DNA from: Alphaproteobacteria bacterium
Lineage (GTDB): Bacteria > Pseudomonadota > Alphaproteobacteria > CACIAM-22H2
Length of the DNA: 33,455 nt
NCBI GenBank assembly: GCA_044355765.1
Contig: JBIKXN010000001.1
Span: forward strand, 1-33,455
Direction: 5' to 3'
Both the position numbers and the translations under genes were made by a program. The notes beneath the pieces were generated by a model. That model was given only the letters and a program-made list of their open reading frames with translations. It did no database searches and was not told the origin of the DNA. Below are positions 14,253 to 33,455 of the stretch, one piece after another (position 1 is the first letter of the stretch; each line of letters begins with the position of its first letter).

Positions 14253-17191
14253 CCGGCTATCGTCTGCCGTCGTCCGGGGCGACGCAGGGCGGGGCGCAGA
14301 TCGCCTTCCGTTTCGATGGTCGGCGTCTGGCCGGGCGCGCGGGAGAGACCCTCGCGGCGGCGCTGCTCGCCGCGGGCGAGCGTATCGTCGCGCGCAGCTT
14401 CAAGTATCACCGGCCGCGCGGGGTCTACGGCTTCGGCCTCGAGGAACCGAACGCGCTGGTGCGCTGCGGCGAGGATCCGCTGGCGCTCGCGACCCGCATC
14501 CGTCTCGCCGATGGGCTGGATGCGCATCCGGTCAACGCCGCGCCGAGCCTGCGCTTCGACTGGCGGGAAATCCACGACTGGCTGTCGCCGCTGCTGCCGG
14601 CGGGTTTCTACTACAAGACCTTCATGGGACCGGCTGGCGCCTGGCCCCACTGGGAGCGCGCGATCCGCGCCGCCGCGGGGCTCGCGCGGCTCGACGGCAG
14701 CGCGCCGTCGTGGCGTCGCGACACGCGTCACGTCCATTGCGACGTGCTGGTGGTCGGGGCGGGCCCGGCGGGTCTGGCGGCCGCGCGCGACCTGGCGGCG
14801 AGCGGCGCGCGAGTCGTGCTCGCCGACGACGGCGCCGCGCCGGGCGCGGCCAATCTCGACGGCATGGAAGCCTGGATCGACGGCGAGCCCGTGGCCGACT
14901 GGGCGCGGCGCGCGACGGCGGAGTTCGACGGGGCGCAGGCATGCACGCGTCTGGCGGACACGCTGGTCTTCGCGCTGCACGACCATGGTTTCGCGCTGGC
15001 GGTCCAACGCGATCCTGCCGACGGGATGGATGCCCGTCTGTGGCGCATCCGCGCCGGTCGCGTGATCCTGGCGACCGGCGCGCTCGAGCGGCCCGCGCTG
15101 TTCGCCGGCAACGATCGCGCGGGCGTCATGTCGCTCGCGGCCGTACGACGCTACGCCGAGCGCTTCGCGGTCGCCTGCGGTCGCGATCTGGTCGTCGTCG
15201 CGAACAACTCCGCGGCCTATGGCGACGTCGCGCGGCTCCGGCGGATGGGAGTGGCTGTTTCGGCGATCGTCGATCCGCGGCGGCGCATCCCCGCCGGCGC
15301 GCTCGATCTGGCCGGCCGGTTCGGCGTCGCGGTGCTTGGCGGCCAATCCGCGATCGCGGCGGTCGGGCGGACGGTCGAGGCCGTGCGCGTGTCCTCTTCG
15401 GGCAGCGCCGGCCGCCCGCGTACCCTCGACTGCGATGTCCTGGCCGTCTCCGGCGGCTGGACGCCGCTGGTTCATCTGCACAGCCAGGCAGGCGGGCGGC
15501 TGGACCACGATGCGGCGCTCGACGCGTTCCTGCCTCGCCTCGACTCCCGGCCGGTGACGAGCATCGGTTCCTGCGCCGGCCGCATGACGCTCGCTGCCGC
15601 GCTCGCGGACGGGAAGGCGACCGCGCGGGCGATCGCCGCTGGCCTCGGACGAACGGTCCCGGCGGCGCGGATCGAGGACGTGATCGCGCCGGAGGATTTC
15701 GACCCCGATCCCGCCGTGCTGGTCGAAGCCCCAGGCGCGGCCGTGGCGGGCAAGGTCTTCGTCGACCTCGCCGCCGACGTCACGACAGCCGACATCCGGC
15801 TGGCGGCGCGCGAGGGCTACGATTCGGTCGAACTGATGAAGCGCTACACCACCGCGGGCATGGCCGGCGACCAGGGACGCCATGGCAATCTCGACGCGAT
15901 CGCGGTGCTGGCGCAGGCGCGCGGCGATCTGCCCGGCAGCGTCGGCACCACGACCTACCGGCCGCCCTTCGCGCCGGTCGAGTTCGGGACGATCGCGCCG
16001 CGCGCCGGCTGGTTCCTCGCGCCGGCCCGCGCGACGCCGCTCACGCCGTGGCACGAAGCCGCCGGCGCGGTCATGTACGATGTCGGCGCGAACTGGCGGC
16101 GACCCGGCTACTACCCGCGGCCGGGAGAGACGCTGGAGACGGCGACTGCCCGCGAATGCGTCGCCTGCCGCACCGGCGTCGCCATCTACGATTCGAGCCC
16201 GCTGGGGAAGTTCGAGTTCGGCGGACGCGACGTCACGACCTTCCTGGAGCGACTCTACTGCAACGCCTGGGCGGATCTGCCGCCCGGCATGGGGCGCTAC
16301 GGCATGATGCTGTTCGAGGACGGACGGGTCTTCGACGACGGTATCGCGTTCCGTCTCTCCGCGCGGCGCTTCCTCGTCACCACGACCACCGGCAACGCCG
16401 ATACTGCGCTGGCGCGGTTCGAGTACCATCGCCAGATCGTCTGGCCCGAACTCGACGTGCGCATCGTGCCGGTCACCGCGCAATGGGCGGATATCGTCGT
16501 ATGCGGACCGAAGGCGCGGGAGGTGATCGCCGCTGCGGGCACCGATATCGACCTCTCCAGCGAGGCCTTCGCGTTCATGGGCCTCCGCACCGGGCGCGTC
16601 GCCGGCATCGACGCCCGCGTTATGCGCGTCAGCTTCACCGGCGAACTCAGCTACGAGATCAACGTGCCCGCCCGCCGCGCGCTCGACCTCTGGACGGCGC
16701 TGATGCATGCCGGTGCGGCGCACGACATCGTGCCGCTCGGTTCCGAGGCCAACCATGTCCTGCGGATCGAGAAGGGGTTCATCTCCGTCGGGCACGAGGC
16801 GGACGGCGTCGTCGATCCATACGATCTCGGCATGGGGTGGATCGTCGCCACCGGCAAGCCGGATTTCGTCGGAAGGCAGGCGCTGCTGCGCAACCGCGCC
16901 GATCCCGCGCCGCGCGTCCAGCTCGTGGGCCTGCTCGCCGCCGATCCAGCCGCGGTGCCGGCGGAGGGCGCCGTGGTCCTCGCCGAGGACGGACGTTGGG
17001 GGCGCGGGCATGTGACGGCCAGCTGCATGAGCCCGACGCTGGGGCGTTCGCTGGCATTGGCGCTGGTGGAGGACGGACGACGGCTGATCGGCACGCGCGT
17101 GCGGCTCTTCGCGCCGTCCGGCAGCGAGAGCGAGGCGGAGGTCGTCAAGCCGGTCTTCTTCGATCCCAGGGGTGAGAGGATGCGCGCATGA
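14249..17191 (+). CDS. soxA: Sarcosine-oxidase-type alpha subunit (NAD-binding plus GcvT-like tetrahydrofolate-binding domains)
   Basis: Start at ATG 14249 (MTGYRLPSSG...FRFDGRRLAGRAGETLAAALLAAGERIVARSFKYHRPRGVYG). Dinucleotide fold VLVVGAGPAGLAAARDLA. The C-terminal aminomethyltransferase-like region reads YDSSPLGKFEFGGRDVTTFLERLYCNAW ... ELSYEINVPA. Confidence 0.9.
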   Translation: MTGYRLPSSGATQGGAQIAFRFDGRRLAGRAGETLAAALLAAGERIVARSFKYHRPRGVYGFGLEEPNALVRCGEDPLALATRIRLADGLDAHPVNAAPSLRFDWREIHDWLSPLLPAGFYYKTFMGPAGAWPHWERAIRAAAGLARLDGSAPSWRRDTRHVHCDVLVVGAGPAGLAAARDLAASGARVVLADDGAAPGAANLDGMEAWIDGEPVADWARRATAEFDGAQACTRLADTLVFALHDHGFALAVQRDPADGMDARLWRIRAGRVILATGALERPALFAGNDRAGVMSLAAVRRYAERFAVACGRDLVVVANNSAAYGDVARLRRMGVAVSAIVDPRRRIPAGALDLAGRFGVAVLGGQSAIAAVGRTVEAVRVSSSGSAGRPRTLDCDVLAVSGGWTPLVHLHSQAGGRLDHDAALDAFLPRLDSRPVTSIGSCAGRMTLAAALADGKATARAIAAGLGRTVPAARIEDVIAPEDFDPDPAVLVEAPGAAVAGKVFVDLAADVTTADIRLAAREGYDSVELMKRYTTAGMAGDQGRHGNLDAIAVLAQARGDLPGSVGTTTYRPPFAPVEFGTIAPRAGWFLAPARATPLTPWHEAAGAVMYDVGANWRRPGYYPRPGETLETATARECVACRTGVAIYDSSPLGKFEFGGRDVTTFLERLYCNAWADLPPGMGRYGMMLFEDGRVFDDGIAFRLSARRFLVTTTTGNADTALARFEYHRQIVWPELDVRIVPVTAQWADIVVCGPKAREVIAAAGTDIDLSSEAFAFMGLRTGRVAGIDARVMRVSFTGELSYEINVPARRALDLWTALMHAGAAHDIVPLGSEANHVLRIEKGFISVGHEADGVVDPYDLGMGWIVATGKPDFVGRQALLRNRADPAPRVQLVGLLAADPAAVPAEGAVVLAEDGRWGRGHVTASCMSPTLGRSLALALVEDGRRLIGTRVRLFAPSGSESEAEVVKPVFFDPRGERMRA

Positions 17192-22878: not shown

Positions 22879-22910
22879 CGTTTTTCTGCCGCGCCGCGTT
22901 AGGTTTGCTT

Positions 22911-24464
22911 ATGACGCATGTGATTTCTCCCGGCGGGCTTTCTCTCGCCGCGCTGCGGCGCTGGCACGACGATGCCGGTCCGCTGGTTCTCGATCCGGCA
23001 GCCGCGCCGGCCGTCGCCGCCTCCGCCGCGGCCGTCGACCGGATTCTCGCCAAGGGCGACGCCGTCTACGGGGTGAACACCGGCTTCGGCAAGTTGGCGA
23101 CGACGCGCATCGCGCCCGACCGGCTGCGCGACCTGCAGACCGCGCTGGTGCTGTCGCATAGCGTCGGCGTCGGTCCGGCGCTGCCGCCCGAGACGGTGCG
23201 GATGATCGCGATACTCAAGGCGGCAAGCCTCGCGCGCGGCCATTCAGGCGTGCGCCCCGCGGTGATCGAGGCGCTGCTGGCGGCGATCAATCGCGGCGTC
23301 GTTCCCGTAATCCCGGCCAAGGGGTCGGTCGGAGCGTCTGGCGATCTGGCGCCGCTCGCGCATCTCAGCGCCACGCTGATCGGCCATGGCGAGGCGTTTC
23401 TCGGCAACGAGCGCATGCCGTCGGCGCAGGCCCTGCAGCGCGTGGGGCTCGAGCCGCTGCGCCTCGAGGCCAAGGAGGGGCTTGCGCTGCTCAACGGCAC
23501 GCAGGTCTCGACCGCCCTGGCGCTCGTGGGACTGTTCGCGGCCGAGGACGCCTTCGCCGCGGCGGTGATCGCGGGTGCGCTGAGCATCGACGCCGCGAAG
23601 GGCAGCGATGCGCCGTTCGACGACCGCATCCATGCCATCCGCGGCCAGCGCGGCCAGCGCGACGTCGCGGCGGTATATCGCCACCTGCTCGAAGGCTCCG
23701 CGATCCGGGCTTCGCATCTCGACTGCGAGCGGGTGCAGGATCCCTACTGCCTACGTTGCATGCCGCAGGTGATGGGCGCTTGTCTCGACTCGATCCGGCA
23801 TGCCGCCGACATCTTCCTGCGCGAGGCCAACGGCGTTTCCGACAATCCGCTGGTCTTCGCGGACGCCGGCGAGATCCTGTCCGGCGGAAACTTCCATGCC
23901 GAGCCGGTGGCGATCGCCGCCGATCTTCTGGCGATCGCGATCGCCGAGATCGGCGCGATCGCCGAGCGCCGCATCGCGATGCTGGTCGATCCTTCGACGA
24001 ATGGCGGGCTGCCGGCCTTCCTGGTCCGCGAGCCCGGCCTGAATTCCGGCTTCATGATCGCCCATGTCACGGCGGCCGCGCTGGCCAGCGAGAACAAGTC
24101 GCTGGCGCATCCCTCGAGCGTCGACAGCCTTCCGACCTCCGCCAACCAGGAGGACCATGTCAGCATGGCCACGCATGCCGCCCGCCGCCTCGGTGAGATG
24201 GCGCGCAATACCGCGACGATCGTCGGGATCGAGCTGATGGCTGCGTGCGACGGCATCGGCTTCCACGCGCCGCTGGCGACCAGCGCCCGGCTGACGACCG
24301 CGATCGCGGCGCTGCGCGCGCGGGTGGCGCCGGTGGAGCGCGACCGCTTCCTCGCGGGCGACATCGACGCCGCGCGGGAACTGGTCGAAAGCGGCGTGTT
24401 CGGGCGTTGGATGACCGAAGGGCTTATGCCCAGCGGTGGTGCGCAAGCGGAGGGCGGACGATGA
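22911..24464 (+). CDS. hutH: Histidine ammonia-lyase (MIO-dependent aromatic amino acid lyase family)
   Basis: ATG at 22911; the track start 22905 is a TTG two codons upstream. Supporting segments are [11 protein letters not shown] and the MIO-forming [16 protein letters not shown] (Ala-Ser-Gly encoded at 23334-23342). Length is 517 aa, and urocanase lies downstream. Confidence 0.9.
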
Positions 24465-25069
24465 CGAGTTGGATCAGGATGCTGCAATACGAAGAGTCGG
24501 AAGGCCATCTGCGCCAGCTCTACGACCGGGTGAAAGGGCCGGGCGGATCCATCGACAACGTGATGAAGATCCACTCGCTTCGCCCGCACACGATGGAAGG
24601 GCATTCGGCGCTCTACAAGAGCGTGCTGCACCATACCGGCAACACGACGCCCGTCTGGTTCCTGGAATGCCTGGGCATCTACACCTCGCTGGCCAACCGA
24701 TGCGACTATTCGGTCGCGCACCACTTCGCCGGCCTGACCCGTCTGCTCAAGGACGAGGCGCGTGCGAAGGCGATCTACGAGGCGCTGGCCGCAGGCGCGC
24801 CCGAGCGCGTCTTCGCGGGCAAGGAGCTGGCTCTGCTTCGCTACGTCAGGAAACTGACCCTGCAGCCGCAGAAGATGGAGCAGGGCGACGTGCAGGCATG
24901 CCGCGCCGCGGGCTGCACCGATGCCGAGATCTTCGAGGCCAATCAGGTCTGCGCCTATTTCAACTACTCGAACCGGCTGCTGAACGGGCTCGGCGTCACG
25001 ACGCAGGGCGATCTGCTCGGCTATTCGCCGCCCAACACCGACAAGCTCGACGATTGGGAGCATCAATGA
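24461..25069 (+). CDS. Carboxymuconolactone decarboxylase/AhpD-like 'peroxidase-related enzyme' family protein
   Basis: The ATG at 24461 overlaps the hutH stop (ATGA). [58 protein letters not shown] matches my recollection of the N-terminus of the uncharacterized peroxidase-related CMD subfamily. The Cys/His context is [12 protein letters not shown]. Confidence 0.75.
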
Positions 25070-26766
25070 CGATGGCCACCGTACCTTCCCGGCGCGACAA
25101 TGCGCGCCGCATCGCGGCGCCGCGCGGTTCCGACCTCACCTGCCGGTCCTGGCAGTCGGAGGCGGCGATGCGCATGCTGATGAACAATCTCGACGCCGAG
25201 GTCGCCGAGCGACCCGAGGAACTCGTCGTCTATGGCGGCATCGGCCGCGCCGCGCGCGACTGGCAGAGCTTCGACCGCATCGTCGCAAGCCTGAAGACGC
25301 TTGCCGACGACGAGACGCTGCTCGTGCAGTCCGGCAAGCCGGTCGGCATATTCCGCACCCATGCCGACGCGCCACGTGTCCTCCTGGCCAATTCGAACCT
25401 GGTTGGGCACTGGAACAACTGGTCACATTTCCACGAACTCGACCGCAAGGGCCTGATGATGTACGGCCAGATGACGGCCGGGTCGTGGATCTATATCGGC
25501 TCGCAGGGCATCGTGCAGGGCACCTACGAGACCTTCGTCGAGGCCGGACGCCAGCATTACGGCGGCGACCTGCGCGGGCGCTGGATCCTCACTGGCGGAC
25601 TCGGCGGCATGGGGGGTGCGCAGCCGCTCGCCGCGGTCTTCGCCGGCGCCTGCATGCTGGCTGTCGAATGCCAGCCGAGCCGGATCGAGAAGCGGCTGGA
25701 GACGAAGTATCTCGACCGCTGGACCAAGGATCTCGACGAGGCGCTGGACATGATCCGGGCCGCGACCGCGAAGGGCGAGGCGATCTCGGTCGGCCTGCTC
25801 GGCAACGCCGCCGAGGTGTTCCCCGAACTGGTGCGGCGCGCCAAGGCAGGCGACGCGCGCGCGCGGCCGGACATGGTCACCGACCAGACTTCGGCGCATG
25901 ATCCGATCAACGGCTATCTGCCCGTCGGCTGGACGCTCGACGACCATGCGCGGCTGCGCGAGAGCGACCCGGCGCGCGTCGAGAAGGCGGCGAAGGAATC
26001 GATGGCCGTGCATGTCCGCGCCATGCTCGATTTCCATCGCATGGGCGTACCCACGCTCGACTACGGCAACAACATCCGCCAGATGGCCAAGGAGATGGGC
26101 GTCGCCGACGCCTTCGACTTCCCGGGTTTCGTGCCCGCCTATATCCGGCCGCTCTTCTGCCGCGGTGTCGGGCCGTTCCGCTGGTGCGCCCTGTCCGGCG
26201 ATCCCGAGGACATCTACCGCACCGACGCGAAGATGAAGGAGTTGTTCCCCGAGGACCGGCATCTGCATCGCTGGCTCGACATGGCGCGCGCGCGTATCCG
26301 GTTTCAGGGTCTTCCGGCGCGCATCTGCTGGGTCGGCCTGGGCGGCCGCGCAAAGGCAGGGCTCGCCTTCAACGAGATGGTCCGGCGCGGCGAACTCAAG
26401 GCGCCCATCGTGATCGGTCGCGACCATCTCGACTCCGGGTCGGTCGCCTCGCCCAACCGCGAGACCGAGGCCATGCTGGACGGCTCCGACGCTGTCGCGG
26501 ACTGGCCGCTGCTCAACGCGCTGCTCAACACCGCGTCGGGCGCGACCTGGGTCAGCCTGCATAACGGCGGCGGCGTGGGCATCGGGTTCTCGCAGCATGC
26601 CGGCATGGTGATCGTATGCGACGGCAGCGAGGCCGCGGATCGTCGGCTGGAGCGCGTCCTGACCAACGATCCTGGCACGGGGGTGATGCGGCACGCGGAT
26701 GCCGGCTACGATATCGCCGTCGCCTGCGCGCGCGAGCACGGGCTCAAGCTGCCGATGCTCGGGTGA
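25066..26766 (+). CDS. hutU: Urocanate hydratase (urocanase)
   Basis: The ATG at 25066 overlaps the upstream stop (ATGA). Segments [50 protein letters not shown] and [12 protein letters not shown] (NAD site) are characteristic of urocanase. Length is 566 aa. Confidence 0.92.
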
Positions 26767-26773: not shown

Positions 26774-27073
26774 ATGGATGCGGCGGTGCTGAAGGCCTCG
26801 TTGGCCGGGCAGGTCGCGCCGCAGGGGCTGGCGCGTCCGGTCCTGGCGCTCTGGCATTGCGGGCGCGGCGAGTGGGATGCGGCGCACGGACTGGTGCAGC
26901 AGGCGGAAGGCGAGCCCGCGCATGACTGGGTGCATGCGCATCTCCACCGTGTCGAGGGCGACCTTGCGAATGCCGGCTACTGGTATCGGCGCGCAGGCAG
27001 GCCGGTCGCGCGCGGATCGCTCGAGTCCGAGTGGGCCGAGATCGCGGGGGCGCTTCTGGCGAGGTTGGAATGA
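26774..27073 (+). CDS. Small conserved-looking protein of unknown function (99 aa)
   Basis: The ATG at 26774 lies 7 nt after the hutU stop, and its own stop overlaps the next start (ATGA 27070-27073). The sequence has ordinary composition, including WVHAHLHRVEGDLANAGYWYRRAG. Coding status is inferred mainly from tight operon packing and frame-consistent codon bias. Confidence 0.55.
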   Translation: MDAAVLKASLAGQVAPQGLARPVLALWHCGRGEWDAAHGLVQQAEGEPAHDWVHAHLHRVEGDLANAGYWYRRAGRPVARGSLESEWAEIAGALLARLE

Positions 27074-28026
27074 AGACCGTCGTCTGCATCGAGCGCGCGT
27101 CGCTGGGGCCCGGCGTCAGCCTGCGGGCGCCGCGGTTCGCGCATGTCTGGCGCGACCATGACCGTACCTCGGCCGGAGACATCGTCGCCCGGCTCGCCGG
27201 CGCCGATATCGCGGTGGTCAATAAGCTGCCGATCGGCGAGGAGGTCCTGGCCCGTACCCCGGATCTGCGCATGATCGCGGTGACGGCGACGGGTACCGAC
27301 AATGTCGATCTCGCAGCCTGCCGCAGGCGCGGCATCGTGGTGTCGAATGTTCGCGGCTATGCGACGACGACCGTGCCCGAGCATACTTTCGCGCTGATCC
27401 TGGCGTTGCGGCGCGGTGTGGTCGGATACGCCCAGAGCGTCCAGCGCGGCGATTGGCAGAAAGCCGCGCAGTTCTGCTATTTCGACTTTCCGATCTCCGA
27501 CCTCCGCGGTTCGCGCCTGGGCATCGTCGGCGGCGGCGCCATCGGCGCGGCGGTCGCGTCGCTCGGTCGTGCCTTCGGGATGGACGTCGTCTTCTCGACC
27601 CAGCGCGGCGGGCCGGAACGCCCGCATTACATTCCGTTCGAGGCGGTCATCGAGACCGCGGACGTGCTGACGCTGCATTGCCCGCTGACGGCTGCGACCC
27701 GCGGCATGATCGACCGGTCCGTGCTGCGGCGCATGAAGCCGGGGGCGATCCTGGTCAACACGGCGCGTGGCGGCCTGATCGTCGACGCGGATCTGGTCGA
27801 GGCGCTGCGCGGCGGCTGGATCGCCGGTGCGGCCATCGATGTCACCACGCCCGAGCCGCCGCCCCCCGACCATCCCTTCATGCTGCTCGCCGGCCATCCC
27901 GGGTTCATCCTGACCCCGCATGTCGCCTGGGCCAGCGTCCAGGCGCGCCAGGCGGTGGCCGACCAGGTGATCGACAATATCGAGGCCTTCGTCGCCGGTG
28001 CGCCGCGCAACGAGGTGGTCAGATGA
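27070..28026 (+). CDS. D-isomer-specific 2-hydroxyacid dehydrogenase (glycerate dehydrogenase/hydroxypyruvate reductase-like)
   Basis: Start at ATG 27070 (MKTVVCIERASL). Supporting segments are TATGTDNVDLAACRRRGIVVSNVRGY, the Rossmann motif LGIVGGGAIGAAVA, VNTARGGLIVDADLVEAL, AAIDVTTPEP and LTPHVAW. Confidence 0.85.
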   Translation: MKTVVCIERASLGPGVSLRAPRFAHVWRDHDRTSAGDIVARLAGADIAVVNKLPIGEEVLARTPDLRMIAVTATGTDNVDLAACRRRGIVVSNVRGYATTTVPEHTFALILALRRGVVGYAQSVQRGDWQKAAQFCYFDFPISDLRGSRLGIVGGGAIGAAVASLGRAFGMDVVFSTQRGGPERPHYIPFEAVIETADVLTLHCPLTAATRGMIDRSVLRRMKPGAILVNTARGGLIVDADLVEALRGGWIAGAAIDVTTPEPPPPDHPFMLLAGHPGFILTPHVAWASVQARQAVADQVIDNIEAFVAGAPRNEVVR

Positions 28027-28805
28027 TTTCGGCCCGCCGCCGCGGCGAGTTTCCGGCGGGCGTGCCGCGCGGCCTGCCGGGCGGCCGGGAGGCCGCGCTC
28101 TATCGGCGCGTCTACGACGTGATGCGGCGCGCGATCGCGGACGGCGCCTGGGCGCTCGGCGAATCGCTGCCCAGCGAGGCGGGGCTCGGGGCGCGGTTCG
28201 GGGTCAGCCGCATCACGATTCGCCAGGCGATGCAGATGCTGCAGAACGCCGGCTATATCCGCACGCAGCGGGCGCGGCGCGCGGTCGTGATCGCGCGCGA
28301 CCCGCTCGGCGCGTCGGGAGACACGATCGACACGATCGAAGAACTGATCGAGGCTGCAAGCGACACGCGGCTGCGCATCCTGAGCTGGCGCAGCGAACTG
28401 GCGCCCGAGGCGGCGCAGATCCTGGGCGTGCCGCCGGGAACCGATCTCAAGTGCCTGCGCGGCGTCCTCATGCGCGCGCGCACCCCGCACGCGCGGTCGA
28501 TCATCTATTTCCACCCCTCGATCGGCGCCCGGCTCAAGCGCGCCGATTTCGACGACGTGATCGTCTTCCGGGTCATGCGCCGCGAACTGGGCATCCAGCT
28601 CGTCGACGTCAAGCGGACGATCTGGGCCGAACTTGCCACTCCGGAGGACGTCGCGCAGCTCGGCGTCAAGCGGGGCGACGCGATGCTATGCACCCGGCTG
28701 GTGTATCGCGGGCCGCAGGGGCTGCCCGTCGAGGTCACCCTCTCGCGCTACCCGGGCCGCGAATTCAGCCTGACCTACAGCATCGATGTCGGTGGCGACG
28801 CTTGA
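28023..28805 (+). CDS. GntR-family transcriptional regulator, HutC/UTRA subfamily-like
   Basis: The ATG at 28023 overlaps the upstream stop (ATGA). The winged-helix segment is LPSEAGLGARFGVSRITIRQAMQMLQNAGYIRTQRARRAVV, followed by a C-terminal effector domain of about 170 aa. It is the last gene of the hut-like operon. Confidence 0.85.
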   Translation: MISARRRGEFPAGVPRGLPGGREAALYRRVYDVMRRAIADGAWALGESLPSEAGLGARFGVSRITIRQAMQMLQNAGYIRTQRARRAVVIARDPLGASGDTIDTIEELIEAASDTRLRILSWRSELAPEAAQILGVPPGTDLKCLRGVLMRARTPHARSIIYFHPSIGARLKRADFDDVIVFRVMRRELGIQLVDVKRTIWAELATPEDVAQLGVKRGDAMLCTRLVYRGPQGLPVEVTLSRYPGREFSLTYSIDVGGDA

Positions 28806-28876
28806 CTCCCGTCCCCGGGAAGGGATGATGTCATAACAAGTTGCACGGCCGCGTCGCGGCCGGCGCGGGAGGGAAC

Positions 28877-29656
28877 ATGCAGGTCGATCTGAAGGGCCGG
28901 GTCGCATTGGTGACCGGCGCCGCAACGGGCATCGGCAAGGCCTGCGCGCTGCGCCTGCGCGATAGCGGAGCGACGGTCGTCTTCAGCGACCGCGACCTCG
29001 ACCGCGCCCGCGAGACGGCCGGCAACGACGGCGACGCGATCGCGCTCGACGTCGCCGACCGTGCGGCGATAACCCATGCCGTCGACGACGTTCTTGCCCG
29101 TCATGGCCGGATCGACATCCTCGTCAACAATGCCGGGATCGGCGTGCGCGCCGCCGACCGCAAGACGGTCGACGAGTTCCCGGTCGAGGCCTGGGACGAG
29201 ATGATCGCCATCGACCTGACCGGCGTGTTCCTGATGAGCCGCGCCGTCGCAGCCGCCATGCGGCGCGCGCGCGCCGGTGCGATCGTCAACATCGCCTCGG
29301 TGCTGGGGCTGGTGCCGATGCGCCTGCAGAGTTCCTATGTCGCGGCCAAGTCCGGCGTCGTCAACCTGACGCGCAGCATGGCGCTGGAGCTCGCCAAGGA
29401 CGGCATTCGCGTCAACGCGGTGGCTCCCGGATCCACCGCCACCGAAGGCTGGCAGCGCTGGATCCAGGACCCGTCGAGCGAGGTTCAGGATCTGCATCGC
29501 AGCCTGATGTCCCATATTCCGATGGGGCGGCCAGCGCGCACGGAGGAGATCGCCAACGGCGTCCTCTTTCTCGCGTCGCCGGCCGCATCATACGTGACCG
29601 GCCATACCCTGGTCGTAGACGGCGGCTGGACCGCTGGCTACGCCCGCGACTGGTAA
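28877..29656 (+). CDS. Short-chain dehydrogenase/reductase (SDR)
   Basis: Start at ATG 28877 (MQVDLKGRVALVTGAATGIGKA), with GGGAGGGA at 28867-28874. Also present are NNAGI and the catalytic YVAAKSGVV (YxxxK). Confidence 0.85.
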   Translation: MQVDLKGRVALVTGAATGIGKACALRLRDSGATVVFSDRDLDRARETAGNDGDAIALDVADRAAITHAVDDVLARHGRIDILVNNAGIGVRAADRKTVDEFPVEAWDEMIAIDLTGVFLMSRAVAAAMRRARAGAIVNIASVLGLVPMRLQSSYVAAKSGVVNLTRSMALELAKDGIRVNAVAPGSTATEGWQRWIQDPSSEVQDLHRSLMSHIPMGRPARTEEIANGVLFLASPAASYVTGHTLVVDGGWTAGYARDW

Positions 29657-29678
29657 ATCCGACGGAGGCAGAGAGAAG

Positions 29679-32126
29679 ATGACCATCGCCGTCAAGCGCA
29701 AGCCCGCCGCAAAGCAAGCGGCGCGTCCTGCCGCCCGCCCGAAGCCGAACGATGCGCTCGCAGATCTCGATCGCGAGCAACTTGTCGGCATGTATCGCGA
29801 GATGCAGCTGCTGCGGAAATTCGAGCTGGCGGCGCAGGTCGCCTGCCGCGCGGGCGAGACGCCTGGCTTCCTGCATCTCTATGTCGGCGAAGAGGCGGTC
29901 GCGGTCGGCGTCTGCGCGCATCTGCGCCGGTCGGACTGGATCACCTCGACGCATCGCGGGCACGGCCATGCGCTCGCCAAGGGCATGGATCCGAACGTGC
30001 TGATGGCCGAACTCTACGGCAAGGGCGACGGATGCTGCGGCGGACGAGGCGGCACGATGCATCTCTACGATCCCACGGTCGGCCTGTTCGGCACCAACGG
30101 GCTGGTCGGCGGCGGGATCCCGTCCGCTGTCGGTGCCGCGATCTCTGCGAAGCATCGCAAGACCGGCGACGTCGCGGTCGCCTTCTTCGGCGACGGCGCG
30201 ACGAACCATTCGGCCTTCCACGAGTCCGTGAACTTCGCCGGGTTCATGCGCGCGCCGGTGATCTTCGTGTGCGAGAACAACCTCTACGCGACGGCGACGG
30301 CGTTGAGCAGCGTGACGCTCAATCCCGAGATCGCGACGCGGGCGGCCGCCTACGGCATCCCGGGCGTCGCCGTCGACGGCAACGACGTCGTCGCGATGTG
30401 GCGGGTGATGAAGCAGGCGGCGGAGCGCGCGCGGCGCGGCGAGGGACCGACGCTGATCGAGGCCAAGACCTATCGCACGGTCGGCCATCACGAGGGCGAC
30501 CCGGTCACCGGCGTCTACCGCACCCAGGGCGAGGTCGACCAGTGGGCCGAACGCTGCCCCATCAAGCGACTGCGTGCCCAGATCGTCGACGATCTCGAAC
30601 TTGTCGAAGCCAGGGAACTCGACGCGATCGACGCGGAGATCGACAAGGTCGTCGCCGGCGCGATCGACTTCGCGCGCAAATCGCCAGAGCCCGATCCGCA
30701 CGCCTATGCGCGCCATGTCTTCGCCGACCAGCTCAATCCGGCCGAGGCGATGCTGCCCGGCGCGGAGAAATCCGGCGGCCCCGAGACCAGCTGGCTCGAC
30801 GCCGTGCGCGACGGCATCGCCGAGGAGATGCGGCGCAACCGCGACATCATGTACTTCGGCGAAGGCACGGGCGAGCGCGGCGGCACCTTCGCCCACACCA
30901 AGGGGCTGTGGCAGGAATTCGGCGCCCATCGCATGGTCGATACGCCGATCTCCGAGCTGGGCTTCACCGGCGCTTCGCTGGGCGCCTCGGCGACCGGCGT
31001 GCGCTGCATCGCCGACCTGATGTTCGCCGATTTCCTGTTCGAGGCGGCAGGGCAGATCGCGCTGCAGGCCGCGAAGCTGCGCTACATGTCCAACGGCCGC
31101 ATGCAGGCACCGATGATCGTGCGCGTGGGCTGCGGCGCGGTGCGATCCGCAGGGCCGCATCATTCGGGGACGTATCATCCGGCCTGGGCGCATATCCCCG
31201 GGCTGATCGTCTGCATGCCGTCGACGCCGGCCGATGCCAAGGGCCTCATGAAGACGGCGCTGCGCGCGAGCGACCCGGTGCTGATGCTCGAGACGAAGGC
31301 GCTGTTCTCGACCAAGGGACCGGTGCCGGCGGGCGAGCATTTCGTGCCCTTCGGCGTCGCGCGCATCGCGCGCGAGGGTCGCGATCTGACCATCGTCTCG
31401 GCCGGGCAGCTGGTCCATCGCTCGCTCGAGGCCGCCGCGGCGCTGGCCAAGGAGGGCATCGAGTGCGAGGTGATCGATCTGCGCACGATCCAGCCGCTCG
31501 ACGTGGAAACCGTCGCGGCGAGCGTGCGCAAGACCCATCGCTGCCTGGTCGCCGACGAGGGCTGGGCGCCGTTCGGCGTCGGTGCCGAGATCGGCCAGTC
31601 GATCCAGGAGGCCTGCTTCGACCATCTCGACGGTCCGGTCGCGCGGCTGCACACGGATTTCGTCTCGCATCCCTTCGCGCCGTCGCTCGAGCGGGCGATG
31701 CTGGTCAACACCGACCGCATCGTCGCCGCGGCGCGGCGTGTGCTGTCGGGCGAGGCGTTGCCGATCCGCCGTCCGCGCGCCGGCGGGATCGACCGCGCGG
31801 TGCCGGCGCCGGCGGCGCCGGTCGCGGCGCCTGCTTCGGCTCCTGTGCAGGCGGCGGCCGCGCCGCCCGCCGCGCCGGCCGAGGTCCAGGTGCCGGGCAC
31901 CGCGATCAAGATGCCGTTCGGCGACCTGACCGTCAGCGAGGGCAAGGTGGTCCGCTGGCTCAAGCAGCCGGGCGACGCGGTGCAGGCGAAGGAGACGGTG
32001 GTCGAGGTCGAGACCGACAAGGCCGTGGTCGAGATCGAGGCGCCGGTGGGCGGTCGGCTCGGTCCGCAATTGCGTATCGCGGGCGAGATCGTGAAGATGG
32101 GCGAAACCATCGGCTCGGTGGCGTGA
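29679..32126 (+). CDS. Fused thiamine-diphosphate-dependent 2-oxoacid/acetoin dehydrogenase E1 alpha + E1 beta + C-terminal lipoyl-attachment domain (815 aa)
   Basis: One uninterrupted frame. The alpha part (aa ~28-345) carries the ThDP motif FFGDGATNHSAFHESVNFAGFMRAPVIFVCENN. The beta part (aa ~369-690) includes RMVDTPISELGFTGASLGASATG and CMPSTPADAKGLM. An Ala/Pro linker follows (aa ~700-740). The lipoyl domain (aa ~741-815) has VVEVETDKAVVEIEAP, with the target Lys codon at 32019-32021. Confidence 0.85.
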   Translation: MTIAVKRKPAAKQAARPAARPKPNDALADLDREQLVGMYREMQLLRKFELAAQVACRAGETPGFLHLYVGEEAVAVGVCAHLRRSDWITSTHRGHGHALAKGMDPNVLMAELYGKGDGCCGGRGGTMHLYDPTVGLFGTNGLVGGGIPSAVGAAISAKHRKTGDVAVAFFGDGATNHSAFHESVNFAGFMRAPVIFVCENNLYATATALSSVTLNPEIATRAAAYGIPGVAVDGNDVVAMWRVMKQAAERARRGEGPTLIEAKTYRTVGHHEGDPVTGVYRTQGEVDQWAERCPIKRLRAQIVDDLELVEARELDAIDAEIDKVVAGAIDFARKSPEPDPHAYARHVFADQLNPAEAMLPGAEKSGGPETSWLDAVRDGIAEEMRRNRDIMYFGEGTGERGGTFAHTKGLWQEFGAHRMVDTPISELGFTGASLGASATGVRCIADLMFADFLFEAAGQIALQAAKLRYMSNGRMQAPMIVRVGCGAVRSAGPHHSGTYHPAWAHIPGLIVCMPSTPADAKGLMKTALRASDPVLMLETKALFSTKGPVPAGEHFVPFGVARIAREGRDLTIVSAGQLVHRSLEAAAALAKEGIECEVIDLRTIQPLDVETVAASVRKTHRCLVADEGWAPFGVGAEIGQSIQEACFDHLDGPVARLHTDFVSHPFAPSLERAMLVNTDRIVAAARRVLSGEALPIRRPRAGGIDRAVPAPAAPVAAPASAPVQAAAAPPAAPAEVQVPGTAIKMPFGDLTVSEGKVVRWLKQPGDAVQAKETVVEVETDKAVVEIEAPVGGRLGPQLRIAGEIVKMGETIGSVA

Positions 32127-32145
32127 GCCGGAAAGCGGGGGCGGG

Positions 32146-33174
32146 ATGGGACGGCGTCTTCTTCTGGTCAACTATCTCCATGCGGACGATGCGTTCGAGC
32201 GCGCGGTGGCGGCCGAACATGGCGCGCATCTCGACATCCTGAGGCCGACGGACGGCAAGGCTTCGGAGATCCCGACGGCGTTGGCCGCCGGGGCGGAGGG
32301 GTTGATCAGCTATTCGGCGGTGCTGAAGATCGCGCTTCCGCCCGAAGCCTTTCCCAATGTGCGCTGCGTGCTCCGCTCGGGCGTGGGCTACGACACGATC
32401 GACGGCGCGGCCTGGGGCGCACGCGGCATTCCGGTCTTCAACGTGCCCGACTACGGCACCTCGGAAGTGGCCGATCACGCGATCGCGCTGATGCTGGCGC
32501 TGACCCGCGGCACTGCCGCCTATCACGACGCGATGCGTCGCGATCCGCGCAAGAACTGGACCTATACGGTTGCGCCGACGGTCCGGCGGCTGCGGACCTC
32601 CGTGTTTGGCGTCCTCGGGCTCGGGCGCATCGGGCTCGCCGCCGCGCGCCGCGCGCAGGGCTTCGGCATGGACGTGGTGTTCTACGACCCCTACCAGCCC
32701 AGCGGTTTCGAACTGGCGACCGGGCTGAAGCGCGCCCGCAGCCTCGAGGACCTTCTCAAGGTCGCCGACGTCGTCAGCGTGCATACGCCGCTCAGCGACG
32801 AGACGACAGGGTTGCTCGGCGCAAAGGCCTTCGCGGCCGCGAAGCCGGGGCTGATCGTCATCAACACCGCGCGCGGCCCAGTCGTCGATCTCGATGCGCT
32901 CTACGACGCGCTCAGGAGCGGCCGCGTCGCGGCGGCCGGTCTCGACGTGCTGCCCAAGGAACCGGCGGATCCGGATCACAAGCTCATCCGGGCCTTTCTC
33001 GATCGCGAAGAGTGGCTCGAGGGCCGCTTCACGCTCAGCCCGCACGCCGCCTTCTACAGCCCGGCGGCGAACGACGACCTGCGGCGCAAGACGATCGAGA
33101 CGGTACTCGAGCATCTGGAAACCGGAGCGCTGGCCAATTGCGTCAACCGCGACCGGCTCGTCCGCAAGGCCTGA
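32146..33174 (+). CDS. D-isomer-specific 2-hydroxyacid dehydrogenase, CtBP-like
   Basis: 342 aa starting 19 nt after the E1 fusion stop. Supporting segments are GVGYDTIDGAAWGARGIPVFNVPDYGTSEVADHAIALMLAL, the Rossmann motif GVLGLGRIGLAAA, INTARGPVVDLDALYDAL..AAGLDVLPKEP and LSPHAAFYS. Confidence 0.85.
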   Translation: MGRRLLLVNYLHADDAFERAVAAEHGAHLDILRPTDGKASEIPTALAAGAEGLISYSAVLKIALPPEAFPNVRCVLRSGVGYDTIDGAAWGARGIPVFNVPDYGTSEVADHAIALMLALTRGTAAYHDAMRRDPRKNWTYTVAPTVRRLRTSVFGVLGLGRIGLAAARRAQGFGMDVVFYDPYQPSGFELATGLKRARSLEDLLKVADVVSVHTPLSDETTGLLGAKAFAAAKPGLIVINTARGPVVDLDALYDALRSGRVAAAGLDVLPKEPADPDHKLIRAFLDREEWLEGRFTLSPHAAFYSPAANDDLRRKTIETVLEHLETGALANCVNRDRLVRKA

Positions 33175-33455
33175 TCCGCGCTCCCGGGCGCGCGGCGCGC
33201 GCGGTGCCGATCGGACAGGCGCCGGCGAAGGTCATGTGACGGATCTGGCGGAAGAGAACACGCGGGAGACGGCGGGCAGGCCGGTGGCGCTTCGGCGTGC
33301 GGCGTCGGATGGCGTCCGTGCATCGGTGCGGAGGGTGGCGGGCGCCCAGCCGGGCCCCGTGGGCGTGGACTTTCCCTTACCGCTCATATGGGGATGTGCG
33401 GCATCGGCGGGCGGGCGCCCTTGACGGCACGCGGGGCGACGGGGGAGGTTATCAT

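What the first reader, a model, noticed from the sequence alone, without database searches (positions are those of the whole stretch)
29679..32126. Single-polypeptide E1alpha-E1beta-lipoyl domain fusion with no E2 core or E3 nearby
The 815-aa ORF joins three parts in one frame: a ThDP-binding E1 alpha, an E1 beta (pyrimidine-binding plus C-terminal domains), and a canonical lipoyl domain (ETDKA, Lys781). A roughly 40-residue Ala/Pro linker (aa ~700-740) precedes the lipoyl domain. In classical complexes the lipoyl domain belongs to E2, whose catalytic acyltransferase core is absent here. The flanking genes are an SDR and a CtBP-like dehydrogenase. An E1 that carries its own swinging arm could mean a minimal, self-contained oxidative decarboxylase or acetoin-type cleavage system. 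In that case the acyl-lipoyl group would be discharged by an unlinked partner.
Basis: partly seen in the sequence, partly recalled or inferred. Interest (0 to 1): 0.65.

Follow-up and report, generated by a model that had tools for sequence, protein, structure and literature searches.

The report
E1 enzyme carrying its own lipoyl arm
This is a real, conserved bacterial enzyme that fuses both halves of a thiamine-dependent E1 dehydrogenase to its own lipoyl swinging arm, and relatives suggest it borrows the cell's pyruvate-dehydrogenase core instead of having its own.

Summary
The 815-aa ORF (29679-32126, +) is real. Its parts are E1-alpha, E1-beta, a disordered 53-residue Ala/Pro linker and a lipoyl domain with ETDKA (Lys781). 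Independent assemblies and more than 120 homologue clusters share the architecture, so it is not an assembly error. No E2 core, E3 or lipoate gene lies in the 33-kb window or 10 kb beyond it.

It is not a stand-alone oddity.
- The E1 belongs to the acetoin-dehydrogenase-like branch (signature STHRGHGH).
- Distant relatives (Planctomycetota, Verrucomicrobiota) have SDR, then an E1-alpha-beta fusion, then a classical E2.
- In the triple-fusion family the lipoyl domain sits on E1, and three states follow it:
  - a lipoyl-less E2 with an intact DHRxxDG motif;
  - a degenerate E2 that keeps only E3-binding;
  - nothing, as in the window's clade.
- Two relatives have the window's exact gene order plus a lipoyl-less E2. 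In one of them that E2 is 93% identical to the same genome's housekeeping PDH E2.

Best reading: an accessory, Aco-like E1 of a hydroxy-acid catabolic operon loads its own arm and uses a PDH-type E2 core and E3 encoded elsewhere. The substrate is unknown. This is a new variant of a known kind, and no characterised member was found.

The parts
28023..28805 (+). GntR/HutC-type regulator (GntR HTH + UTRA effector domain), first gene of the conserved module
   Evidence: Called gene with Pfam GntR and UTRA in L001-L004, converted to window coordinates. GntR/UTRA genes lie next to the module in most group-A loci.
28802..28829 (+). Sigma-70-like promoter match between the regulator and the SDR. It is a possible start of the SDR-fusion-2-HADH transcript.
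   Evidence: This is the only promoter-like site in 27000-33455 (1 found against 0.2 expected). No terminator-like site lies in the region. It is a consensus match only.
28877..29656 (+). Short-chain dehydrogenase/reductase (SDR), 22 nt upstream of the fusion. It is the most conserved partner gene.
   Evidence: Pfam adh_short_C2 1.5e-62. An SDR-cluster ORF lies within 8 kb of the fusion in 26 of 31 lipoyl-fused loci and 34 of 46 loci with a full E2, at a median gap of 2.5-4.5 nt upstream. It is generic FabG-like by PDB and scores below all NCBIfam cut-offs, with BudC at 223 against 270.
29679..32126 (+). E1-alpha / E1-beta / lipoyl-domain fusion protein, 815 aa
29799..30698 (+). E1-alpha (ThDP diphosphate-binding) part, aa 41-340. 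It contains STHRGHGH (29946-29969), GDG (30189-30197), NN (30276-30281) and the catalytic-loop GHH (30483-30491).
   Evidence: Pfam E1_dh. The motifs are invariant in 51 homologues. H270 aligns with the catalytic His of human PDH E1-alpha, and Tyr89 of human E1-alpha is His92 here.
30789..31721 (+). E1-beta part: pyrimidine-binding domain (aa 371-542) and transketolase C-terminal domain (aa 559-681). It contains E426 (30954-30956) and H494-H495 (31158-31163).
   Evidence: Pfam. In a 1:1 alignment to G. stearothermophilus E1p-beta, E59-beta maps to E426, F85-beta to F452 and H128-beta to H495. The roles of these residues are described in PMC2663715. All are invariant.
31746..31904 (+). Flexible Ala/Pro-rich linker, aa 690-742
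   Evidence: Composition is 18 Ala and 11 Pro of 53 residues. AF2 pLDDT is below 50 for 701-732. Length and sequence vary among homologues.
31905..32111 (+). Lipoyl domain, aa 743-811. The lipoyl-lysine is Lys781 (codon 32019-32021) within ETDKA.
   Evidence: Pfam Biotin_lipoyl 1.7e-11. E778, T779 and K781 are invariant; D780 and A782 are at least 90% conserved. It forms a beta-barrel in the AF2 model. Outside its own family its closest lipoyl domains are alphaproteobacterial PdhB and PdhC (50% and 47%).
32146..33174 (+). D-isomer-specific 2-hydroxyacid dehydrogenase, 19 nt downstream of the fusion
   Evidence: Pfam 2-Hacid_dh_C 1.7e-49. The same gene follows the fusion in L007, L010, L017, L020, L024, L027, L091 and L092.
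27070..28026 (+). Second D-2-hydroxyacid dehydrogenase, upstream of the regulator. It is a possible member of the same catabolic cluster.
   Evidence: Called gene in L001. Pfam, and NCBIfam PRK06487 at 356 bits (cut-off 448).
33175..33455 (.). Start of the 310-355-bp spacer between the 2-HADH and DctP (two DctP start calls). Relatives L091 and L092 carry a lipoyl-less E2 gene at this position.
   Evidence: Gene orders are compared. tblastn with three lipoyl-less E2s finds no convincing remnant (best hit 34 aa at 32%, E 0.009 in a 700-nt search space).

Best explanation
The ORF encodes a working E1 of the heterotetramer-type, ThDP-dependent family, on its acetoin-dehydrogenase-like (AcoAB-like) branch. 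The alpha and beta chains and a lipoyl domain are joined in one polypeptide.

**The operon.** The order is GntR/HutC regulator, SDR, fusion, D-2-hydroxyacid dehydrogenase, TRAP transporter, enolase-superfamily enzyme. This looks like a catabolic module for an imported hydroxy-carboxylate.

**Proposed mechanism**
1. The adjacent dehydrogenases make a carbonyl substrate, either a 2-oxo acid or an alpha-hydroxyketone. (Inferred.)
2. ThDP in the alpha/beta active site forms the hydroxyalkyl-ThDP intermediate, releasing CO2 or an aldehyde. (Inferred from conserved catalytic residues.)
3. The intermediate reductively acylates the enzyme's own Lys781-lipoyl arm, which hangs on a roughly 50-residue flexible linker. 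(Inferred; the residues needed for this step are conserved.)
4. A PDH-type E2 core unloads the acyl-dihydrolipoyl arm to CoA, and E3 re-oxidises it. Neither is encoded in the operon. (Inferred from relatives.)

**Why a PDH-type core.** In sister lineages the same operon encodes a lipoyl-less E2 (E3-binding plus catalytic domain). In one genome this E2 is a 93%-identical copy of the housekeeping PDH E2. The window's lineage has lost that gene, so the housekeeping PDH E2 core and E3 are the most likely partners.

**Why the arm sits on E1.** E1s are selective for their cognate lipoyl domain, whereas E2 catalytic sites and E3 are more permissive. This point comes from established knowledge of these complexes.
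For: **Anatomy and integrity**
-.

**Catalytic competence for both half-reactions**
- GDG...NN, E426, F452, H495 and H270 are invariant in 51 homologues and map onto the G. stearothermophilus and human residues. Their roles are described in PMC2663715.
- The core of the lipoyl ETDKA motif is invariant.

**Aco-like affiliation**
- STHRGHGH occurs in 80 of 81 fusions. It also occurs in E1-alpha of loci whose partner is AcoC-type (S. meliloti, lipoyl + alpha/beta-hydrolase) or NCBI-named acetoin dehydrogenase E2 (Aminobacter).
- Identity is 44-45% to these, against 36% to human PDH E1-alpha.

**Descent from a three-component system**
- 35 of 46 group-B loci have a classical E2 (lipoyl + E3-binding + catalytic) about 10 nt downstream of the fusion.
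- An SDR is linked in both groups.

**E2 states in the lipoyl-fused family**
- Lipoyl-less E2 with DHRxxDG intact (L012-L016, L038, L091, L092).
- Degenerate E2 with the catalytic His and the DG lost. Six loci were checked at the motif; two more were assigned by the E2 HMM.
- No E2-like ORF in 16 of 31 loci, including the window.

**The closest comparison**
- L091 and L092 have the window's gene order plus a lipoyl-less E2 between the 2-HADH and DctP.
- That E2 is 93% identical over 302 aa to PdhC of the same genome, whose pdh operon also has lpd and lipA.

**Placement of the window**
- The window's clade is monophyletic (bootstrap 100). It is sister to the clade with a lipoyl-less E2, and includes L010, which still has a gene with E3-binding domains.

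**Need for a cognate arm**
- AcoAB expressed in E. coli without AcoC and AcoL did not degrade acetoin (PMC3744081). This is consistent with that E1 needing its own lipoyl-bearing partner.
Against: - No genome-wide search of the window's own organism was possible. The presence of pdhC and lpd there is assumed from its alphaproteobacterial affinity, not shown.
- No interaction between this E1 and a PDH core has been tested.
- The clade with a catalytically dead E2 shows that some relatives keep E3-binding without a cognate acyltransferase. This fits an E2-independent chemistry as well as it fits borrowing.
- Thermus and Sphingobium plasmids carry Aco-like E1-alpha/beta pairs followed by a stand-alone 80-aa lipoyl protein with no E2 gene among the annotated neighbours (6 kb flanks). 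E2-free operation may therefore be a general mode.
- The 93% PdhC copy is known from one genome only.
- The substrate is unknown.
- The diagnostic value of STHRGHGH rests on a handful of Aco-like sequences. It was not checked against experimentally characterised AcoA.
Confidence: 0.5

Rival explanations
1. E2-free, CoA-independent oxidoreductase. The E1 oxidises its ThDP-bound intermediate with its own lipoyl arm. The acyl group leaves by hydrolysis, of acyl-ThDP or acyl-lipoyl, or passes to a non-CoA acceptor. The arm serves mainly as an electron relay to E3.
For: - In eight loci of Rhizobiaceae, Mesorhizobium, Kaistia and Prosthecomicrobium the downstream E2 keeps its E3-binding domain. It has lost the catalytic His and the DG in all six aligned at the motif.
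- 16 of 31 lipoyl-fused loci have no E2-like ORF in the fetched locus.
- Aco-like E1 pairs are followed by a stand-alone lipoyl protein, with no E2 gene among the annotated neighbours, on Thermus and Sphingobium plasmids.
Against: - The closest syntenic relatives keep a catalytically intact PDH-type E2 in the operon.
- A dead E2 is also what E3BP is in eukaryotic PDH, where an active E2 is still used.
- No thioesterase or alpha/beta-hydrolase lies in the window or in the 10 kb beyond it.
- Uncatalysed hydrolysis is slow (established knowledge).
Confidence: 0.2
2. A dedicated lipoyl-less E2 of the same family is still present in the window's organism but encoded elsewhere in the genome. The system would then be complete and private, only split between two loci.
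For: - Lipoyl-less E2s (E3-binding + catalytic, about 300 aa) are abundant: most of the 120 best-scoring 90%-identity clusters.
- Operons of this family are rearranged often.
Against: - Every lipoyl-less E2 whose context I examined lies in the fusion's operon, either directly after the fusion (L012-L016, L038) or one gene downstream of it (L091, L092). None was an orphan.
- This is a small sample, and the window's genome could not be searched.
Confidence: 0.2
3. A decaying remnant. After loss of its E2 the fusion no longer works and is drifting towards pseudogenisation.
For: The E2 gene is absent, and the spacer where relatives carry it holds nothing recognisable.
Against: - The whole E2-less clade keeps full-length ORFs, with all catalytic residues and the lipoyl-lysine invariant at 68-93% overall identity.
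- The identical protein occurs on 22 contigs.
- The operon has tight gene spacing and a good Shine-Dalgarno.
Confidence: 0.04
4. Assembly or frameshift artefact that joins separate acoA, acoB and lipoyl-protein genes.
For: Separate-gene versions of the same components exist in other bacteria.
Against: - Independent assemblies and runs agree, with no indels at either junction.
- More than 120 homologue clusters and 31 species-level loci have the same single ORF.
Confidence: 0.01

Closest known systems
Acetoin dehydrogenase enzyme system AcoA/AcoB/AcoC/AcoL (for example B. subtilis, P. carbinolicus; PMC3744081)
   Same: - It is a ThDP-dependent alpha/beta E1 that transfers an acyl group to a lipoyl arm.
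- It shares the STHRGHGH signature and is 44-45% identical to Aco-like E1-alpha.
- An SDR is linked to it, as butanediol dehydrogenase is in aco clusters.
- Aco systems already show variable E2 partners: S. meliloti has lipoyl + alpha/beta-hydrolase.
   Different: - Alpha, beta and the lipoyl domain are one polypeptide.
- There is no AcoC or AcoL in the operon.
- The context (TRAP transporter, enolase-superfamily enzyme, 2-hydroxyacid dehydrogenases) points to a hydroxy-carboxylate, not acetoin.
- Activity on acetoin is untested.
Alphaproteobacterial pyruvate dehydrogenase with a lipoyl domain on E1-beta (PdhB; NCBIfam NF008854). It was first described in Zymomonas mobilis by Neveling et al. 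1998, J Bacteriol 180:1540, cited from my own knowledge because the paper was not readable here.
   Same: - An E1 subunit carries a lipoyl domain. This is seen directly in L093: PdhB is Biotin_lipoyl + Transket_pyr + Transketolase_C.
- Outside its own family, the window's lipoyl domain is closest to PdhB and PdhC lipoyl domains (50% and 47%).
   Different: - There the domain is N-terminal to beta, alpha is a separate chain, and the E2 keeps its own lipoyl domain.
- The window protein scores below the NF008854 cut-off (377 against 454).
Actinobacterial OdhA and the hybrid PDH-ODH complex (PMC7568260, PMC10415282)
   Same: - It is a precedent for an E1 that lacks one module of its own complex and shares components of the PDH complex.
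   Different: - It is the mirror image. OdhA fuses E1 to an E2 catalytic domain (PMC10415282) and, by established knowledge, uses the lipoyl domains of the PDH E2.
- The window protein has the lipoyl domain and lacks the catalytic and E3-binding domains.
E3-binding protein (E3BP, protein X) of eukaryotic PDH (PMC7494870, PMC10156792)
   Same: - The roughly 240-aa proteins that follow the fusion in Rhizobiaceae and Kaistia relatives keep an E3-binding domain and an E2-like body without the catalytic His, as E3BP does.
   Different: - They lack a lipoyl domain.
- They are absent from the window itself.
- They are bacterial and arose independently.
Fused E1-alpha-beta '2-oxoisovalerate dehydrogenase E1 component' (the name JGI gives these proteins)
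   Same: - The alpha-beta fusion is shared. Hundreds of 50%-identity representatives are fusions of 650-680 aa.
   Different: - Those end at about residue 690 and have no lipoyl domain.
- The branched-chain name is an automatic label. By PDB scores the protein is nearer PDH and Aco E1 than BCKDH.

Membership tests
Heterotetramer-type ThDP-dependent E1 (Pfam E1_dh + Transket_pyr + Transketolase_C) | All three Pfam domains above gathering score | tested here: met
   Scores are 270.1, 118.4 and 122.3 bits against cut-offs of 22, 27 and 25.9.
Heterotetramer-type ThDP-dependent E1 (Pfam E1_dh + Transket_pyr + Transketolase_C) | ThDP/Mg-binding GDG...NN motif and the beta-chain Glu that activates ThDP | tested here: met
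   G171-D172-G173, N200-N201 and E426 are invariant in 51 sequences. E426 aligns with G. stearothermophilus E59-beta.
Heterotetramer-type ThDP-dependent E1 (Pfam E1_dh + Transket_pyr + Transketolase_C) | The two His residues implicated in reductive acylation of lipoate (G. stearothermophilus H128-beta and H271-alpha) | tested here: met
   H495 and H270 align with them and are invariant.
Pyruvate dehydrogenase E1 (NCBIfam equivalogs TIGR03182 alpha, NF008854 beta) | Score at or above the curated equivalog cut-off | tested here: not met
   337.4 against 393.85, and 377.3 against 454.
Pyruvate dehydrogenase E1 (NCBIfam equivalogs TIGR03182 alpha, NF008854 beta) | Active-site Tyr of the 'YR.HG' motif (human Tyr89, G. 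stearothermophilus Y102-alpha) | tested here: not met
   It is replaced by His92 ('THRGHGH').
Acetoin dehydrogenase enzyme system E1 (AcoA/AcoB) | Closer in sequence to Aco-type E1 than to PDH or BCKDH E1, with a shared active-site signature | tested here: met
   Identity is 44-45% against 36%, and STHRGHGH is shared. The Aco-like comparators were chosen by their AcoC-type or NCBI-named partners, not by experiment.
Acetoin dehydrogenase enzyme system E1 (AcoA/AcoB) | Operon partners AcoC (E2) and AcoL (E3) | tested here: not met
   Neither is in the window or in the 10 kb beyond it.
Acetoin dehydrogenase enzyme system E1 (AcoA/AcoB) | Cleaves acetoin or methylacetoin | not testable with these tools
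   This needs an enzyme assay.
Lipoyl domain (as opposed to a biotinyl domain) | PF00364 fold with the lysine in a (E/D)TDKA context rather than the biotinyl MKM | tested here: met
   Pfam 44.2 bits. ETDKA is at 778-782. The AF2 model shows a beta-barrel.
Lipoyl domain (as opposed to a biotinyl domain) | Lys781 actually carries lipoate | not testable with these tools
   This needs mass spectrometry.
Classical 2-oxoacid or acetoin dehydrogenase complex encoded as one locus | E2 with a 2-oxoacid_dh catalytic domain next to E1 | tested here: not met
   It is absent in the window lineage. It is present in relatives.
OdhA-type 'two-in-one' E1 | E1 fused to an E2 catalytic domain, with no lipoyl domain | tested here: not met
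   The arrangement here is the opposite.

The most novel reading that the evidence does not exclude
The fusion, and the E1 + stand-alone lipoyl-protein pairs on Thermus and Sphingobium plasmids, may define a class of ThDP/lipoyl oxidoreductases that work with no acyltransferase at all. The enzyme-borne lipoyl arm would accept the two electrons and hand them to E3. The acyl group would leave as a free acid or pass to a non-CoA acceptor. This would be a CoA-independent 'two-component' version of the 2-oxoacid/acyloin dehydrogenase complexes. The clade with a catalytically dead but E3-binding E2 would be its evolutionary intermediate.
Probability: 0.15. Interest if true: 0.8.

Novelty: new variant of a known kind. 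Interest (0 to 1): 0.55.

Why it matters
2-oxoacid and acetoin dehydrogenase complexes are textbook examples of a fixed division of labour, in which the swinging lipoyl arm belongs to E2. This family breaks that rule in a graded, natural series:
- arm on E2;
- arm moved to E1, with a lipoyl-less E2;
- E2 reduced to an E3-binding scaffold;
- E2 gone.

In one genome the dedicated core is a near-identical copy of the housekeeping PDH core.

If the borrowing model is right, it gives a clean natural system for three questions:
- which module of these complexes confers specificity (E1 recognising the lipoyl domain) and which modules are interchangeable (E2 active site, E3);
- how accessory catabolic E1s plug into central-metabolism cores;
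- how to engineer new substrate specificities onto an existing PDH core by supplying only an E1-lipoyl fusion.

It also corrects thousands of automatic annotations ('2-oxoisovalerate dehydrogenase E1 component', 'dehydrogenase').

If the E2-free reading is right, it would be a new reaction mode for lipoyl enzymes.

Tried and rejected
- **S. meliloti, S. fredii and Novosphingobium megaplasmid hits.** These were single-piece tblastn matches over residues 30-815. The S. meliloti locus turned out to be separate acoA, acoB and acoC-type genes, not a fusion. I used it only as an Aco-like comparator.
- **SDR as a substrate clue.** It is generic FabG-like in the PDB and below every NCBIfam cut-off, so it gave no substrate assignment.
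- **Literature.** Six searches for a described E1-lipoyl fusion, a lipoyl-less E2 or this operon type found nothing relevant. The Zymomonas paper (PMC107055) is not held.
- **E2 remnant in the window lineage's 2-HADH to DctP spacer.** Only chance-level tblastn hits appeared.
- **Biopython bootstrap.** It timed out. I replaced it with numpy Kimura distances and NJ with 100 replicates. The tree is distance-based and approximate.
- **Plus-strand ORF picks in window 14-22 kb.** Several were high-GC shadow ORFs with no Pfam hits. Real genes there are mostly on the minus strand. The 919-aa minus-strand ORF 29412-32171 that overlaps the fusion was not tested; I take it to be such a shadow too.
- **Raw reads of 2026 runs X21 and X22.** They gave too little depth to add to the contig evidence.


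Full report
**1. Observation**

The ORF at 29679-32126 (+) is present exactly as described: ATG start, 815 codons, stop at 32124-32126.
- Pfam places E1_dh at aa 41-340, Transket_pyr at 371-542, Transketolase_C at 559-681 and Biotin_lipoyl at 743-811, all far above gathering scores.
- The lipoyl motif ETDKA is at 778-782, so the modified residue would be Lys781.
- The segment 690-742 has 18 Ala and 11 Pro of 53 residues.
- An AlphaFold2 model built on 51 homologues has mean pLDDT 79.6. It gives confident alpha and beta folds, pLDDT below 50 for 701-732, and a separate beta-barrel at 741-814. Its other low-confidence stretches (267-279 and 489-494) contain the catalytic His residues H270 and H494; H495 lies just after the second stretch. 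This fits the mobile active-site loops described for E1s in PMC2663715.

**2. Not an artefact**
- The identical protein is called on 22 contigs from JGI, ENA and NCBI assemblies.
- The 120 best homologue clusters (68-93% identity) all have the same architecture except one partial sequence. They come from Microvirga, Alsobacter, Kaistia, Mesorhizobium, Terrarubrum, Prosthecomicrobium and Burkholderiales MAGs.
- In 51 aligned sequences the ThDP motif, the catalytic residues and E778, T779 and K781 of the lipoyl motif are invariant.

**3. Surroundings**

The gene sits in a tight plus-strand cluster:

| Gene | Coordinates |
|---|---|
| D-2-hydroxyacid dehydrogenase | 27070-28026 |
| GntR/UTRA regulator | 28023-28805 |
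| SDR | 28877-29656 |
| Fusion | 29679-32126 |
| D-2-hydroxyacid dehydrogenase | 32146-33174 |

- Gaps are 22 and 19 nt. A GGAGG lies before the fusion. One promoter-like site lies between regulator and SDR, and there is no terminator-like site.
- Beyond the window, the same contigs continue with a TRAP transporter (DctPQM) and an enolase-superfamily gene.
- An HMM built from 39 related E2s, run on all six frames of the window and of loci extending 10 kb beyond it, matched only the fused lipoyl domain.
- Pfam scans of the remaining window ORFs found three enolase-superfamily genes, an HpcH-type aldolase, sarcosine-oxidase-like genes, amino-acid ABC transporter genes and hutH/hutU. They found no E2, E3 or lipoate-handling gene.

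**4. Which E1 it is**
- By PDB sequence search the beta part is nearest PDH E1-beta (about 240 bits). The alpha part is nearest human PDH E1-alpha (about 200 bits), ahead of the BCKDH chains.
- It nevertheless fails the curated NCBIfam PDH equivalog cut-offs.
- Alignment to G. stearothermophilus E1p-beta is 1:1 over the relevant stretch. It maps E59-beta, F85-beta and H128-beta to E426, F452 and H495.
- Alignment to human E1-alpha maps the catalytic His of 'YRYHGHS' to H270. It also shows that human Tyr89 ('AYRAHGF') is His92 here ('THRGHGH').
- The STHRGHGH signature is present in 80 of 81 fusions examined. It is also present in four E1-alpha proteins of Aco-like loci:
  - S. meliloti, whose partner is lipoyl + alpha/beta-hydrolase (AcoC-type);
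  - Aminobacter, whose partner NCBI names acetoin dehydrogenase E2;
  - Thermus;
  - Sphingobium.
- The alpha part is 44-45% identical to these, against 36% to human PDH E1-alpha.
- I therefore place the enzyme on the acetoin-dehydrogenase-like branch. The caveat is that I could not compare it directly with an experimentally characterised AcoA.
- The mechanism of that system is summarised in PMC3744081: ThDP-dependent C-C cleavage to a ThDP-bound 'active aldehyde', oxidation and transfer through lipoamide, then re-oxidation by E3.

**5. Comparative series: the key result**

A scan of species-representative genomes found at least 564 relatives, of which 80 loci were kept. They fall into two groups.

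*Group B* (46 loci; Planctomycetota and Verrucomicrobiota; 44-50% identity)
- It has an alpha-beta fusion of about 665 aa with no lipoyl domain.
- In 35 loci a classical E2 follows within about 10 nt: lipoyl + E3-binding + catalytic domain with DH..DG intact.

*Group A* (31 non-redundant loci; 57-100% identity; mainly Alpha- and Betaproteobacteria, plus one Opitutaceae, one Verrucomicrobia and one Planctomycetaceae MAG)
- It carries the lipoyl domain on the E1.

An SDR-cluster ORF lies within 8 kb of the fusion, typically a few nucleotides upstream, in 26 of 31 group-A and 34 of 46 group-B loci.

Three states occur within group A:

| State | What follows the fusion | Loci |
|---|---|---|
| A1 | Lipoyl-less E2 (E3-binding + catalytic, DHRxxDG intact) | L012-L016, L038 |
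| A2 | About 240-aa protein with an E3-binding domain and a shortened E2-like body | L021, L025, L026, L029, L031-L034 |
| A3 | No E2-like ORF in the locus | 16 loci, including the window |

- In A2 the catalytic His and the DG are lost in all six proteins aligned at the motif. L029 and L033 were assigned by the E2 HMM. These proteins are E3BP-like.
- A bootstrapped NJ tree rooted on group B gives 100% support for a clade that holds the window and all nine loci typed A3. This clade is sister (79%) to the proteobacterial A1 clade. Seven further loci with no E2-like ORF were not typed, and three of them (L030, L035, L036) fall outside this clade.
- L010, inside the window's clade, still has a gene with two E3-binding domains after the 2-HADH, cut by the contig end.
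- At 50% identity the whole triple-fusion family collapses into one representative. Hundreds of other representatives are alpha-beta fusions that end near residue 690.

**6. The closest syntenic relatives**

A search with an A1 lipoyl-less E2 listed the 120 best clusters, most of which have the same two-domain architecture. I looked at the context of three hits.
- Two of them (L091, L092) lie in operons with exactly the window's gene order plus the E2: GntR, SDR, fusion, 2-HADH, lipoyl-less E2, DctPQM, enolase-superfamily gene, 2-HADH.
- The third (L093) is the housekeeping pdh operon of the same genome as L091: pdhA, pdhB (with an N-terminal lipoyl domain), pdhC, lpd, lipA.
- The lipoyl-less E2 of L091 is 93% identical over 302 aa to PdhC of L093.
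- The betaproteobacterial lipoyl-less E2 of L014 is 56% identical to that PdhC.
- Group-B E2s are only 30-36% identical to it.
- Outside its own family, the window's lipoyl domain is closest to the PdhB and PdhC lipoyl domains (50% and 47%), against 35-38% for group-B E2 lipoyl domains.
- In the window lineage the 310-355-bp spacer between the 2-HADH and DctP, where that E2 gene would lie, holds no convincing remnant.

**7. How it most likely works**

*Shown*
- An intact E1 has every residue needed for ThDP activation and for reductive acylation of lipoate.
- A conserved lipoyl domain sits on a flexible tether.
- The operon is linked to dehydrogenases that make carbonyl compounds and to carboxylate transporters.
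- Relatives pair it with a PDH-type E2 core.

*Inferred*
- The enzyme loads its own arm, and the arm is discharged at a PDH-type E2 active site and re-oxidised by the shared E3.
- In the window's organism the partner would be the housekeeping PDH core, because the dedicated copy has been lost.
- The rationale for an E1-borne arm comes from established knowledge of these complexes, not from a test here: E1s discriminate between lipoyl domains, while E2 catalytic sites and E3 are more permissive.
- The finding that AcoAB alone does not degrade acetoin in E. coli (PMC3744081) fits an E1 that needs its cognate arm.
- The PDH-type partner suggests that the transferred group is acetyl or similarly small.
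- The recurrent neighbours suggest the substrate is a 2-oxo acid or alpha-hydroxyketone derived from an imported hydroxy- or sugar acid. These neighbours are two unrelated families of 2-hydroxyacid dehydrogenase (2-Hacid_dh or Ldh_2), enolase-superfamily enzymes, and TRAP or ABC transporters. I could not narrow this further.

**8. Rivals**
- *E2-free chemistry.* The main rival is that E2-less members really work without an acyltransferase. The dead-E2 clade and the Thermus and Sphingobium E1 + stand-alone lipoyl-protein loci keep this open.
- *Private split system.* A second rival is an unlinked dedicated lipoyl-less E2. Every such E2 whose context I saw lies in the fusion's operon, but the sample is small and the window's genome could not be searched.
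- *Decay.* The conservation argues strongly against this.
- *Artefact.* The evidence in section 2 excludes this.

**9. Comparison with what is known, and novelty**

The parts are all known kinds, and several precedents exist:
- E1-borne lipoyl domains occur in alphaproteobacterial PdhB (NF008854).
- Sharing of components between complexes occurs in Corynebacterium (PMC7568260).
- A catalytically dead E3-binding E2 relative exists in eukaryotes (PMC7494870).

What I did not find described in six literature searches:
- the alpha-beta-lipoyl triple fusion itself;
- the lipoyl-less E2 that partners it;
- the graded loss of that E2.

The proteins carry only generic or misleading automatic names. 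I rate it a new variant of a known kind, of moderate to good interest. It is not a self-contained minimal complex. It is a natural experiment in how the modules of these complexes can be redistributed and shared.

**10. Limits**
- ORFs in loci were called mechanically, and shadow ORFs in high-GC DNA were filtered only by clustering and Pfam.
- The trees are distance-based.
- The 93% PdhC copy is one case.
- No function was tested.
- The window's full genome was not searchable.

Noticed in passing
L091:7001-7936 versus L093:7001-8314 (both from GCA_964482145.1): The lipoyl-less E2 in the fusion operon is 93% identical over 302 aa to the E3-binding + catalytic part of the same genome's housekeeping PDH E2. 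This implies a very recent duplication or gene conversion.
   Followed up: partly
L021, L025, L026, L029, L031-L034, immediately downstream of the fusion (for example L032:12452-13201): These are proteins of about 240 aa with an E3-binding domain and a shortened E2-like body. The catalytic His and the DG are lost in the six aligned at the motif (L021, L025, L026, L031, L032, L034). L029 and L033 were assigned by the E2 HMM only. They are bacterial E3BP-like scaffolds.
   Followed up: partly
L089:5992-8179 (Thermus thermophilus plasmid pAA2-2b) and L088:6001-8257 (Sphingobium sp. RAC03 plasmid): Aco-like E1-alpha and E1-beta genes are followed by a stand-alone 80-aa 'biotin/lipoyl-containing protein', with no E2 gene among the annotated neighbours (6 kb flanks). 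In Thermus a TRAP transporter follows. In Sphingobium two SDRs lie upstream.
   Followed up: partly
L010:13450-14030: In a 74%-identical relative inside the window's E2-less clade, the gene after the 2-HADH encodes two tandem E3-binding domains and the start of an E2 catalytic domain. It is cut by the contig end.
   Followed up: no
window 22905-26766: This is a histidine-utilisation block: hutH (aromatic ammonia-lyase, 22905-24464), a carboxymuconolactone-decarboxylase-like ORF (about 24480-25069) and urocanase (about 25066-26766). A 99-aa ORF of unknown function follows, directly upstream of the dehydrogenase cluster.
   Followed up: no
window 1184-5990: Three enolase-superfamily (MR_MLE) paralogues lie within 5 kb (1184-2371 minus, 2317-3636 plus, 4512-5990 plus). 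Another lies just beyond the window after the TRAP transporter, which suggests a region rich in acid-sugar or hydroxy-acid catabolism.
   Followed up: no
window 12823-17191: These are heterotetrameric sarcosine-oxidase-like genes: a DAO-type beta subunit and a 1004-aa alpha subunit with Fer2_4, SO_alpha_A3 and GCV_T domains. The only Pyr_redox_2 hit in the window lies inside this alpha subunit and is not an E3.
   Followed up: no
window 29412-32171, minus strand: A 919-aa ORF on the opposite strand spans the whole fusion gene. Similar long antisense ORFs cover most genes of this 69% GC window. I take it to be a compositional shadow, but I did not run it through Pfam or a homology search. Other ORF picks in 14-22 kb that gave no Pfam hit were of this kind.
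   Followed up: partly
L087:5903-11117 (S. meliloti megaplasmid): This Aco-like cluster reads SDR, alpha/beta-hydrolase, E1-alpha, E1-beta, then AcoC-type protein (lipoyl domain + alpha/beta-hydrolase fold, no CAT-like E2 domain). It is unannotated in the PLSDB record.
   Followed up: partly
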